IMG/VR virus record: IMGVR_UViG_2521172589_000007
Length of the DNA stretch: 22,624 bases
Reading direction: 5' to 3' (one strand)
Source of the DNA: a virus
Taxonomy: Duplodnaviria; Heunggongvirae; Uroviricota; Caudoviricetes
Part shown: piece after piece, positions 12,001-15,000 of the stretch
Numbering within the stretch: the first letter of the stretch is position 1
Layout: every line of letters begins with the position of its first letter
Program-made: the position numbers

Positions 12001-15000
12001 AAAGTCTTCAATTTTCGCACCACGCACCTGCTGGTGAGTGCTCGGTTTATCTACCGGCACCGGCACCTCAGTATCCGGAACATCGGTTATGGTCTGGCGA
12101 TTATCCCCGGTCTGTCTGCGTGCTTCTGCCTGCTGTGCCAGTTCCGGAAGGGAGTCACGAACCATACGAGGGAGTGATTCAGGCTGTGGCATATCAACCC
12201 CACGCTGACTTTCAGGTGCAGGAAGTCCTTCACGCACTGGTGCTGTGGCGTTCTGCTCATCCGGTGACGGCAGACCACGACGAACTGTTTCGCCCTCCAG
12301 TATTTCCCCCTGGCGACCAGCGGCATTTTCCGGTGCCTGCTCACGTCCTTTCTGGAAACTCTGGCCCTTCACCTCACCGGTTGTGGTAAAACGACCACCA
12401 CGTCCGGCCTGATTTTCATCCGGCGTACGCGCCACTTCTCCTGGTAACGGATATCCCTGTCCGGGATGAATATCGCCGGGAGCGGGAAGGCGTGGACGCT
12501 CAGTTAACTCCTGTGCTGTCGGACCGGCATCACCTTCAGCCATCTGGGAACGCACCAGTTCTTCCGCCGTCGGCGCGTTGCCACGGGCAAGACGGGCCTG
12601 CACTTCTGTATCATCCCCCGTAAAACCACGGAATCGCGGGTCACGCATGAACGCGGGCTGTTCCATCGGATCAGCATCAGTAATACGCTCTCCGTCAGCC
12701 AGAGTGTTAATGGTCTCCGTTGCCACATCTTCAGAGAACGCAGGATTATCCATTTCAACGGCATACTGATTCTCGCCTTTCTTCACTACGGACGGTTTCA
12801 GGCCGGTGGCGCTGGCATTGCGGAAAACGTCGCTCCCCAGAGCACTTTTTTCATCCGTGAAATAACGGTTGTCCGGACGCACCTTTTCAATGCGTTCTGC
12901 TGGTCTGGACGCACCACTCTCGTTAATTTCAATACGAACTTCATCCGGATCGCGGAACCGCACCGTCGGGTAAATACTCCCGTCGCCATCATCCGCATTT
13001 TCCGGCTGTGGCTGTGCCTCCGGTCTGGCCTCCCGCTGAGGGCGAAGCACATCACGTATTGCCTGTAACTGCTGCTCTTCAGTATCAGTACGCCCTTCCT
13101 TCTGGCTGAGTTTTCGGTATTCCTCAAGCAGTTCAGGGCGCGGCTTCGCCTTCAGCTCATCCATCACCGCCTGTCGCTTCGCCTGTTCATCCAGTTCATT
13201 CAACAGCTGGCTGGCGGCTTCCCGGCGATGAACGGCAGACGTGTCTCCCTCATGTGCCATATCCGCATCAGCATACTGTTCCAGAAGCTGCTCGCGATTC
13301 ATCCCCTGCATAGATTCACGATGCTGTGCCACCGGATCAACCGGTTCGGGTTGCGGAGCCGATTCGTCCTGAGGAACGCTTTCAGCCTCACGCATGGCTG
13401 CTTCATCTGCCGCCTGACGTTTTCCACGATATCCGGCAGCCGCACCGAATGGTGCCCCCATTGCAGCACCAAGGGCTGCACCTTCGATCGTTGCGTCAGC
13501 CACGCCCTCCCACGGTGACACATCCATTCCGGCGGTCTCACGCAATGCCGTGTTTTCCTGATAGCGTGAATAGCCACCCTGCGCCGCATTAATCGTCCCC
13601 TGTTCCGTGGCATTTCTGACAATGCCGCTTTTAACGGTCTTCGCCGTGCCCCGCATCGCCAGATTAAGCAACTGAGCATCGCCCAGTTTTGCCGCCATGG
13701 CATTCACAGCCAGCAATTCAGGATCGGTTGCCAGTTGCGCACGCACCTCATCGGCAACACGCTCTTTTGCCAGGTCCATTTTCTGGCGGTCAGTAAGCTG
13801 CGCGTGCTGCGGATCTGCATCAATTGACAAAAAGGTCTGCTGAAATTTCGGTGACTTCGCCAGCTCAGAATAATCCGCGTTAAGAACAGCATCTGCCGCT
13901 GCCATTGCACTCCGCCCTTGCGCACTGACAGTGGAATGGGTGATCAGGCCTGCCTGGAAAAAATCCGGCATTTTTTTATCGACAGCTTCGGCTGCCAGTG
14001 CTGTGGCTCTTTCCGGCTGCATCCCTGCCGCGATGTATTTTTTCTCCAGCCCGGCGGTCAGCACTTTTCGCAGAGTGACATCACCCAGCTTTTTAGTCAC
14101 ACCGCCTGCAACCATATCCGGTACAAGCGCACCAATCAGGTTAACCCCTTTCGCTACCCAGACCGCTGAATCATCATATCCTTCAGTCATCGGTGTATTC
14201 AGCGCCCGCTGCGCCCCCGGCGACATCTTGCCAGTCAGCCATTCATCCGAGGCTTTAGCGCCGCCACTGACTGCCTTGCCTGTGACCTTCAGACCTTTAC
14301 CGACAGTATCAGTAACCGCATTTTTTCCATCAGGCAGAGTGTCGATGACCTCATCCGCCCCCTTGCTGCCACCGACAAAAATATCCTGAACAGTTGCTAC
14401 TCCCGGCAGCCCCATACGGCTGAACTCATTTAAAATACGTGCCCCTGTTTTTACCGGGCTCTGAATCATCGCATCACCGAGTCCACGGGCCATTTCCCCT
14501 GTCCCCCGGACGGACTGGGCGACACCTTTCCCCATAGTTGGCAATACATCGCCCAGGCTGAACGACGTGCTGTTGTCCTTCCAGCGATTGGGATCGGAGA
14601 AAAACACATCATAGCTGTCAGTCTCTCCCGGCTGCTGAATGTTCAGGCTGTTGCGGCTCTGGTTGCCAAATTGCGCTTCAGGGCGCTGTTCATCGGAATA
14701 AGCCATACAGACTCCATAAAAAAACCCGGCACAATGACCGGGTATCAGGAAATAGTATTAACGGGAATGGTGAATTACTGCGCGTAATTCTGTTTCAGAC
14801 CACGGATAAACTCAGATGCAGAGGCCGCGCTATCATCCCTGGCCTGTTCCCCCCTGGCCTTTTGAATACGGAGAAAATTCGCATACCCGTGTTCCAGCAA
14901 TTTCTGATTCTGAGGCTCCAGCATTTCTGGCTGACGGGAGGCCACTTCTCTGGCAAATGCCTGCTTATCCGGATCATCACCCGCCCAACTGGTAATCCCT

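What the first reader, a model, noticed from the sequence alone, without database searches (positions are those of the whole stretch)
14707..14774. Terminator-like hairpin and T7 run placed 12 nt before the giant ORF start
Within the otherwise tightly packed late cluster there is a 68-bp gap containing a hairpin plus seven T on the coding strand directly before the giant gene's RBS. This could attenuate expression of the 8.35-kb gene unless transcription is antiterminated as in lambda Q-dependent late transcription, or it could be an RNA processing or stability element that sets stoichiometry.
Basis: inference. Interest (0 to 1): 0.35.

Follow-up and report, generated by a model that had tools for sequence, protein, structure and literature searches.

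The report
Intrinsic terminator before giant phage gene
The hairpin plus T-run is a real, conserved transcription terminator just before a giant virion-protein gene of a Shiga-toxin-type prophage, but it is one of about a dozen such stops in a late operon that the phage Q antiterminator is expected to read through, so it is a fairly ordinary feature.

Summary
On the minus strand, a 7-bp GC-rich stem with a 6-nt loop (14743..14724) runs into seven T (14724..14718). Then come 11 nt holding a GGAG ribosome-binding site, then the ATG (14706) of a 2783-aa gene.

Under strict criteria the window holds 5 such terminators, against 0.1 expected by chance. The stem stays paired in all 11 sequence variants found, with compensatory changes.

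The window is collinear, in sampled exact matches, with a Shiga-toxin-type prophage without stx in E. coli O104:H4. That prophage carries a Q21/Q933W-family antiterminator 26.7 kb upstream. Twelve co-directional terminators lie between Q and the giant gene, and this is the last.

The giant gene's homologue in phage Sp5 is essential, and there is no room for a promoter after the terminator. Read-through is therefore required, most plausibly by Q-modified polymerase.

A terminator sits at the same junction in distant Aeromonas and Vibrio phages, but not in three other lineages examined.

No transcript data were available, so the function is inferred. Verdict: new member of a known kind, low to moderate interest.

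The parts
14724..14743 (-). Terminator stem-loop ACCCGGT/CATTGT/GCCGGGT: 7 pairs, 5 of them G-C, with a 6-nt loop
   Evidence: dG -11.1 kcal/mol; strict scan; 100% of cells paired in 11 distinct variants, and 2 of 7 pairs show compensatory changes.
14718..14724 (-). Run of seven T, the U-tract of the terminator. T14724 is shared with the stem.
   Evidence: The run is 7 T in window-type and 933W-type variants and 7-9 T in ArgO145-type variants.
14712..14715 (-). Ribosome-binding site GGAG, 5 nt before the ATG
   Evidence: It is invariant in all 11 variants, and an RBS is annotated at the same place in phage P27.
6355..14706 (-). Giant gene, 2783 aa: a large polyvalent virion protein with LPD5, LPD1, MuF_C and LPD38 domains
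   Evidence: Its Sp5 homologue ORF80/ECs1242 is essential for tail assembly (PMC5155283).
14775..16040 (-). Upstream 421-aa gene (phrog_601), whose 3' end the terminator follows
   Evidence: Its Sp5 homologue ORF79/ECs1241 is essential for tail assembly.
14772..14790 (-). Small AU-rich hairpin GAATTAC/GCGCA/GTAATTC across the stop codon. Weakly supported; possibly part of the 3' end structure.
   Evidence: helix 1 is 82% paired, has one compensatory pair, and is shortened to 4-5 bp in ArgO145-type variants.
17440..17459 (-). Co-directional intrinsic terminator after the 133-aa gene; member of the same series
   Evidence: (-12.7)
18299..18319 (-). Co-directional intrinsic terminator after the lom-like outer-membrane gene; member of the same series
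   Evidence: (-11.8)

Best explanation
This is a working Rho-independent terminator at the 3' end of the ORF79-like tail-assembly gene, 11 nt before the start codon of the giant polyvalent virion-protein gene. It is the last of about twelve co-directional intrinsic terminators that punctuate the late operon of this Shiga-toxin-type (Sepvirinae) prophage.

Unmodified RNA polymerase stops here, so the 8.35-kb gene stays silent in the lysogen and stray transcription cannot reach it. In lytic growth, polymerase loaded with the phage Q protein (Q21/Q933W family) at the late promoter 26.7 kb upstream cannot form terminator hairpins in its exit channel and reads through. Read-through is the only route to the essential giant gene, because no promoter fits between the T-run and the ribosome-binding site.

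Shown here: the anatomy, the conservation and covariation, the series of terminators, and the presence of Q. Taken from the literature: the essentiality of the gene and the Q mechanism. Inferred: that termination happens here, that Q overrides it, and that any residual termination or protection of the 3' end lowers the giant-gene message relative to upstream genes.
For: - Anatomy typical of E. coli terminators: a 7-bp stem, U7, dG -11.1. PMC10325885 gives 7-8 bp as the average stem and shows that only stems longer than about 14 bp resist processive antitermination.
- Far above chance under strict criteria: 5 observed against 0.10 expected.
- Strand-specific: no T-run follows the hairpin on the plus strand.
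- Conserved in every complete relative. There are 11 distinct variants among about 56 loci, all paired, with G-C to A-U and A-U/G-U/G-C exchanges and a T-run always of 7 or more.
- Non-coding: the T-run varies between 7 and 9.
- Same prophage in O104:H4: collinear, with every sampled 100-mer an exact match from window 22124 down to the end of the fetched locus near 11150. Q matches PF06530 at E 2e-50, which is the Q21/Q933W family with the nozzle mechanism (bioRxiv 10.1101/651190).
- 12 sense against 2 antisense terminators between Q and the giant gene, with 0.10 +/- 0.30 in shuffles.
- ORF79 and ORF80 are essential in Sp5.
- No promoter-like site in the gap.
- A terminator lies at the same junction in Aeromonas phiARM81mr and in two Vibrio phages, although the upstream protein is only about 31% identical over a 126-residue stretch in the Vibrio phages.
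Against: - No transcript 3' ends or read-through measurements could be examined.
- If Q makes polymerase fully resistant, the terminator does nothing in lytic growth.
- In the lysogen, the terminators at 18319, 17807 and 17459 already stand upstream, and no promoter was predicted between 17440 and 14743. It is therefore unclear what this one would stop.
- Positional conservation holds in only 3 of 6 lineages examined. It is absent in Burkholderia DC1, Ralstonia RPZH6 and a spring-water phage where the genes overlap.
- Phage P27 has a 1-nt deletion that weakens the stem to -8.8.
Confidence: 0.65

Rival explanations
1. Dosage or stability element acting in lytic growth. Even Q-modified polymerase terminates partly here, or the hairpin protects the upstream message from 3' exonucleases after cleavage within the long giant-gene message. 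Either way the giant protein, needed in few copies, is made less than the upstream tail proteins. This overlaps with the best explanation and differs in which effect selection acts on.
For: - A terminator stands at exactly this junction in Aeromonas and Vibrio phages that have no accessory genes upstream to insulate against.
- Upstream terminators make an insulating role partly redundant.
- The giant gene has its own GGAG site and is not translationally coupled, whereas the genes just upstream overlap or are 9-10 nt apart.
Against: - There are no expression data.
- The Q21-family mechanism is described as processive over tens of thousands of nucleotides.
- The stem is of ordinary length, which does not resist antitermination in the one system tested.
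- The element is absent in 3 of 6 lineages.
Confidence: 0.2
2. The terminated 3' end is a small regulatory RNA derived from the 3' untranslated region, made of the stop-codon hairpin, a spacer and the terminator, and acting through Hfq.
For: The architecture resembles such RNAs. Weak sub-threshold Rfam matches are all to small-RNA families that end in a terminator.
Against: - No Hfq cross-linking peak is listed at this site in Sp5. The Sp5 peaks lie elsewhere, and the site is at about 1,295,986..1,296,012 on the plus strand of NC_002695.2.
- The spacer is poorly conserved between variant types.
- All Rfam matches are far below the gathering scores, with E of 0.26 or higher.
Confidence: 0.04
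3. Translational element. The hairpin, or pairing of its flanks, hides the ribosome-binding site, or the U-run serves as a ribosome-loading enhancer for the giant gene.
For: The minimum-energy fold pairs UUCCUGA upstream with AUGGAG downstream. In Burkholderia phage DC1 a long inverted repeat does include the ribosome-binding site.
Against: The flank pairing is absent from ArgO145-type variants, whose 5' flank differs. The hairpin itself ends 8 nt before the GGAG.
Confidence: 0.05
4. A leftover with no selected function: a terminator carried along at a mosaic module boundary and kept only by linkage among close relatives.
For: - Homology with ArgO145-type phages breaks near the stop codon.
- The same hairpin sequence occurs in at least 87 places with other flanks in viral contigs.
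- The relatives are close, at 74-100% protein identity.
Against: Compensatory changes keep every pair. The T-run is never shorter than 7. A sequence-unrelated terminator sits at the same junction in Aeromonas and Vibrio phages.
Confidence: 0.06

Closest known systems
Intrinsic terminators inside lambdoid late operons that Q-modified polymerase reads through (lambda/21/933W pR'-tR' system)
   Same: A Q gene of the Q21/Q933W family lies upstream. A long co-directional late operon contains ordinary hairpin-plus-U terminators, and downstream genes are needed only in lytic growth.
   Different: The studied terminators (tR') lie right after the late promoter. This one is 26.7 kb downstream, between two essential structural genes. 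It is not annotated in the 933W record, which lists terminators only near pR', the tRNA genes and stx.
Terminators that flank accessory 'moron' genes in lambdoid phages (Juhala et al. 2000, as cited in PMC4104026 and PMC8065619)
   Same: A co-directional terminator within a late operon that antiterminated polymerase is expected to pass. The lom-like gene's terminator at 18319..18299 fits this type.
   Different: The gene it follows is not an accessory gene. Its Sp5 homologue is essential for tail assembly, and no promoter of its own was found.
Internal terminators of conjugation operons bypassed by processive antitermination (pLS20 conAn; Tn916 insulator terminator)
   Same: Several ordinary-length terminators lie inside one long operon, are overridden by a processive factor, and otherwise act as insulators (PMC10325885; PMC11658703 and PMC8191782, abstracts).
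   Different: Different element type, host and antitermination factor. There is no evidence here for an antitermination-resistant long-stem terminator at the operon end.
Intra-operon attenuator between rplL and rpoB of E. coli (from my own knowledge, not tested here)
   Same: A partial terminator between co-transcribed genes that lowers transcription of the large downstream genes relative to the upstream ones.
   Different: That attenuator acts constitutively in a cellular operon without a dedicated antiterminator. Partial termination has not been shown for the element here.

Membership tests
Rho-independent (intrinsic) terminator | GC-rich stem-loop of typical size | tested here: met
   7-bp stem with 5 G-C pairs, 6-nt loop, dG -11.1 kcal/mol. 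The typical E. coli stem is 7-8 bp.
Rho-independent (intrinsic) terminator | Uninterrupted U-tract directly after the stem on the transcribed strand only | tested here: met
   Seven T at 14724..14718 on the minus strand. On the plus strand the hairpin is followed by ATCAGGAA.
Rho-independent (intrinsic) terminator | Non-coding position downstream of a co-oriented gene | tested here: met
   It lies 32 nt after the TAA of the 421-aa gene. No in-frame start lies upstream of ATG 14706, and the T-run length varies 7-9 in relatives.
Rho-independent (intrinsic) terminator | Structure rather than sequence is conserved | tested here: met
   100% of cells paired, and 2 of 7 pairs have changes on both sides; slid controls give 20-39% paired. 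Only about three independent lineages underlie this.
Rho-independent (intrinsic) terminator | Releases RNA polymerase in vitro or in vivo | not testable with these tools
   Term-seq data for strain Sakai exist (GEO accession as printed in PMC7547250) but cannot be read here.
Internal terminator of a Q-antiterminated lambdoid late operon | Q gene of a known family upstream on the same strand | tested here: met
   L059 18279..18713 matches PF06530 at E 2.1e-50. That is the Q21/Q933W family.
Internal terminator of a Q-antiterminated lambdoid late operon | Late promoter, Q-utilisation site and tR' just after Q | tested here: inconclusive
   Strong terminators lie at L059 18759 and 18964, just after Q. 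pR', qut and terminators are annotated in 933W. The promoter and qut of this prophage were not examined.
Internal terminator of a Q-antiterminated lambdoid late operon | Downstream gene is required in lytic growth, so it must be read through | tested here: met
   By literature for the homologue: deletion of Sp5 ORF80 abolishes plaque formation and tail assembly (PMC5155283). No promoter-like site lies in the gap.
Internal terminator of a Q-antiterminated lambdoid late operon | Read-through depends on Q | not testable with these tools
   Needs a reporter assay or RNA-seq with and without Q.
Moron-flanking terminator | Follows a dispensable accessory gene that has its own promoter | tested here: not met
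   The upstream gene's homologue ORF79 is essential. No promoter was predicted between 17440 and 14743 apart from one weak 9/12 match inside a gene.
Hfq-binding small RNA derived from a 3' untranslated region | Hfq cross-linking peak at the site | tested here: not met
   No entry in Table S2 of PMC4104026 lies at the Sp5 equivalent, about 1,295,986..1,296,012 on the plus strand. That study used uninduced cells only.
Hfq-binding small RNA derived from a 3' untranslated region | Match to a described RNA family, or a conserved single-stranded seed | tested here: not met
   Rfam at gathering threshold gives nothing, and the best sub-threshold match has E 0.26. The spacer differs between variant types.
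Leader-type attenuator with a competing antiterminator structure | Conserved alternative pairing that excludes the terminator stem | tested here: not met
   The upstream UCCCGU could pair with the 3' arm, but it reads UCCAUU in 933W-type variants. The extended fold is not conserved.

The most novel reading that the evidence does not exclude
The terminator could be part of a conserved gate specific to giant polyvalent virion-protein genes in a broad group of lambdoid short-tailed phages of E. coli, Aeromonas and Vibrio. Under this reading a terminator is kept at the ORF79/giant-gene junction to set the dose or timing of the giant protein. Its U-run would double as the ribosome-loading leader of the gene. 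In Vibrio phages, a dedicated promoter behind the terminator would solve the same problem.
Probability: 0.12. Interest if true: 0.45.

Novelty: new member of a known kind. Interest (0 to 1): 0.2.

Why it matters
If the reading is right, the essential 8.35-kb virion gene at the end of Shiga-toxin-type phage late operons can only be expressed by terminator read-through. That ties production of infectious particles to Q activity as tightly as toxin production is tied to it. It also shows that these late operons contain about a dozen intrinsic terminators, which would keep late genes silent in lysogens. This helps anyone interpreting RNA-seq or Term-seq data of Shiga-toxin-producing E. coli prophages, or correcting start-codon annotation of the giant gene. 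It does not change how late-gene control is understood.

Tried and rejected
- A genome-contig scan with the giant protein's N-terminus returned only a 376-nt contig labelled Xanthomonas pisi, 90% identical and probably contamination.
- Rfam gave nothing at gathering threshold, and only sub-threshold terminator-driven matches at the E-value threshold.
- Small-RNA idea: no Hfq peak at the Sp5 site.
- Promoter in the gap: none predicted, and only 11 nt lie between the T-run and the ATG.
- Bidirectional terminator: rejected, because no T-run follows on the plus strand.
- Repeated or mobile element within the window: rejected, because it is single copy even with 3 mismatches.
- Hiding of the ribosome-binding site by flank pairing: not conserved.
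- Hairpin as coding sequence: the 1999 933W record starts the giant ORF 39 nt upstream, at an ATG created by the 933W-type variant. That ATG is absent from the other variants, and the T-run length is not a multiple of 3.
- Stop-codon hairpin as a second conserved helix: weak support only.
- The Plunkett et al. 1999 933W paper could not be read.
- Recurrence of the same hairpin in other viral contigs turned out to reflect a very common terminator form rather than a specific mobile cassette.

Full report
**What is in the sequence.** All genes of this part of the window lie on the minus strand. A 421-aa gene (16040..14775) ends with TAA, followed by a 68-nt gap, and a 2783-aa gene starts at ATG 14706. 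In the gap, read on the minus strand, are a stem-loop ACCCGGT/CATTGT/GCCGGGT (14743..14724) and seven T (14724..14718). Then comes ATGGAGTCTGT, which holds a GGAG ribosome-binding site 5 nt before the ATG. The hairpin is worth -11.1 kcal/mol. A 41-nt stretch around it folds better than 198 of 200 shuffles, with z = -2.67.

**Is it more than chance.** The built-in lax terminator scan finds as many sites as in shuffled sequence, 16 against 16.5, so a lax match means nothing. I used stricter criteria: a contiguous stem of at least 6 bp, at least 4 G-C pairs, a loop of 3-8, at least 6 T in the next 8 bases, and dG of -9 or lower. The window then has 5 sites against 0.10 +/- 0.30 in 100 dinucleotide-preserving shuffles. 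Four are on the minus strand: 18319, 17807, 17459 and this one. The hairpin is followed by a T-run on the minus strand only, so it is directional. The cluster is not otherwise tightly packed, because gaps of 79, 431, 91 and 123 nt also exist.

**What the window is.**
- The stretch around the finding is about 87-95% identical to short-tailed Shiga-toxin-converting phages (Sepvirinae: 933W, Sp5, P27, Lyz12581Vzw and others) in 186 phage records.
- It is 100% identical to a prophage of E. coli O104:H4 and some other strains.
- The window is collinear with that prophage in strain 2011C-3493. Exact 100-mers sampled every 250 nt match from window 22124 down to the end of the fetched locus.
- The prophage has no stx gene; a carbohydrate esterase gene follows Q instead.
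- Its gene order is Q, lysis genes, terminase, portal, capsid, tail fibres, a lom-like gene, a hok-like gene, four small genes, then the giant gene.
- Its Q protein matches Pfam PF06530 at E 2e-50. This is the Q21/Q933W family, which forms a nozzle on the RNA exit channel and prevents terminator hairpins from forming over tens of thousands of nucleotides (bioRxiv 10.1101/651190).
- The giant protein carries LPD5, LPD1, MuF_C and LPD38 domains of large polyvalent proteins.
- In phage Sp5, in-frame deletions of the homologues of the 421-aa gene (ORF79) and of the giant gene (ORF80) each abolish plaque formation and tail assembly (PMC5155283).

**Conservation.**
- Among 8 phage records and 48 IMG/VR loci, every locus that reaches the junction has the hairpin, the T-run and the same ribosome-binding site.
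- There are three hairpin types: ACCCGGT...GCCGGGT (the window), GCCCGGC...GCCGGGT (933W) and GCCCGAC...GTCGGGC (ArgO145).
- On an alignment of the 11 distinct variants, all cells of the terminator helix are paired. Two of seven pairs change on both sides, one changes on one side and stays paired, and partners slid by 1-3 columns give only 20-39% paired.
- This rests on roughly three lineages, so it is modest but consistent evidence.
- The T-run is 7, 8 or 9 long in ArgO145-type loci, which shows the stretch is not translated.
- The 1999 933W record starts the giant ORF 39 nt upstream, at an ATG that only the 933W-type variant creates. That start is unlikely to be real.
- One record, P27, lacks one G of the 3' arm, giving -8.8 kcal/mol.

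**The element is one of a series.** A slightly relaxed version of the strict scan was run on the 26.7 kb between the end of Q and the giant gene. It finds 12 terminators on the sense strand and 2 on the antisense strand, with 0.10 +/- 0.30 expected per strand. Ten of the twelve lie in the short gaps after stop codons; the other two lie inside the portal gene and inside the 133-aa reading frame. This one is the last. Such an operon can only be transcribed to its end by a terminator-resistant polymerase. That is how lambdoid late operons, including those of Shiga-toxin phages, are known to work (PMC8065619; PMC7547250). The stem length of 7 bp is the E. coli average, and only unusually long stems resisted processive antitermination in the one system where this was studied (PMC10325885).

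**More distant relatives.** A protein search of phage genomes finds the same module of four small genes plus a giant gene in several other groups.

| Phage | Junction before the giant gene |
|---|---|
| Aeromonas phiARM81mr (temperate, lambda-like gene order) | Strong terminator AGCCCCGA...TCGGGGCT TTTCTTTT, ending 28 nt before the giant gene's ATG |
| Vibrio 1.205.O and K250 | GCCCGC CTAGT GCGGGT TTTCTTTT 13 nt after the upstream stop codon, then a promoter-like TTCACC-17-TATGAT, then the giant gene |
| Burkholderia DC1 | 81-nt gap with a long inverted repeat that includes the ribosome-binding site; no T-run |
| Ralstonia RPZH6 | Only a weak hairpin |
| Spring-water phage MW202426 | The two genes overlap |

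The Aeromonas and Vibrio hairpins share no sequence with the E. coli one. A terminator at this junction therefore recurs in three lineages of gammaproteobacterial phages but is not universal.

**How it most likely works.** I take the element to be a functional intrinsic terminator. Unmodified polymerase stops here, and Q-loaded polymerase from the late promoter reads through. Because only 11 nt separate the T-run from the ATG and no promoter-like site lies in the gap, read-through is the only way to express the essential giant gene.

What the terminator is selected for is less clear. Insulation in the lysogen is partly redundant with the three terminators upstream. The recurrence in phages without accessory genes upstream hints at a role tied to the giant gene itself, such as lowering its message level or stabilising the upstream message. 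I cannot separate these readings without transcript data.

**Rejected readings.**
- A small RNA is unlikely. The Hfq cross-linking study of strain Sakai lists no peak at the Sp5 site, the spacer is not conserved, and Rfam gives nothing.
- Hiding of the ribosome-binding site by flank pairing is not conserved.
- The hairpin is single copy in the window.
- The same hairpin sequence occurs in at least 87 other places in viral contigs with unrelated flanks, for example 11 nt before a tailspike gene. When the stem is fixed and the loop left free, similar loops dominate. I read this as a very common terminator form in phages, not as a special cassette.

**Verdict.** It is an undescribed example of a well-known kind of element. 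It is not annotated in the 933W or P27 records. Interest is low to moderate.

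Noticed in passing
window 17784..17807 (both strands): A strong palindromic terminator (ACGCCTGCCTTAAAAAGCAGGCGT, then TTTGCTTT on the minus strand) lies inside the conserved 133-aa reading frame 17509..17910 (phrog_610). It is about 160 nt after a hok-like gene at roughly 17967..18107, so it may be the 3' end of the hok message. The PHROG profile starts at residue 9 of the ORF, which suggests a later start codon.
   Followed up: partly
window 3571..3586, plus strand: A strong terminator (AGGAGCTTCGGCTCCT, then TTTTTCAT) lies 7 nt after the 223-aa gene 2893..3564, in the oppositely oriented accessory region next to the prophage end.
   Followed up: no
L069 (933W, AF125520) 29026..29064; window 14745..14707: The 933W-type hairpin variant (GATGCCCGG) creates an in-frame ATG 39 nt upstream of the conserved start. 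The 1999 933W record annotates the giant ORF L0134 from it, so the terminator is marked as coding there. RefSeq records use the downstream ATG.
   Followed up: yes
L002, L039, L045, L046, L054 (ArgO145-type loci): The T-run after the hairpin is 7, 8 or 9 long in otherwise near-identical loci. The upstream gene stops earlier in this type, so sequence that is coding in the window is non-coding there.
   Followed up: partly
L062 (Burkholderia phage DC1) 2682..2762: The gap before the 4650-aa giant gene holds an imperfect inverted repeat of about 17 bp (CCCTCTGGTTTGATCG ... CGATTGATACCAGAGGG). Its 3' arm contains the ribosome-binding site, and there is no T-run. This may be translational control rather than termination.
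   Followed up: no
L078 8433..8457 and about 17 similar IMG/VR loci: The same hairpin form plus T7 lies 11 nt before a tailspike gene (Pfam Tail_spike_N) as TTTTTTTATGGAATAAATATGGC. This resembles the window's TTTTTTTATGGAGTCTGTATGGC. In all, at least 87 matches to the hairpin pattern lie in flanks unrelated to the giant gene.
   Followed up: partly
Sakai Sp5, NC_002695 about 1,301,433..1,301,515, minus strand (literature); roughly window 9214..9296, plus strand: The Hfq cross-linking study lists a strong peak (EcOnc36) antisense to the giant gene, about 5.4 kb into it. In that study's table ECs1242 has far more antisense than sense reads. An antisense RNA inside the giant gene may exist.
   Followed up: no
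L060 12979..13007 (Vibrio phage 1.205.O): A promoter-like site TTCACC-17-TATGAT sits between the terminator and the giant gene. A bidirectional terminator follows the gene's stop codon, so the giant gene looks like a transcription unit of its own in this phage.
   Followed up: partly
L009 (NZ_JPLE01000269.1, labelled Xanthomonas pisi): A 376-nt contig encodes a fragment 90% identical to residues 271-395 of the giant protein. It is probably E. coli phage contamination in that assembly.
   Followed up: no
window 1..2397, plus strand: A 798-aa protein with a twin-arginine signal, which looks like a DMSO-reductase-family catalytic subunit (my reading of the sequence, not tested). It would be host DNA, placing the prophage end between 2397 and about 2890.
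   Followed up: no
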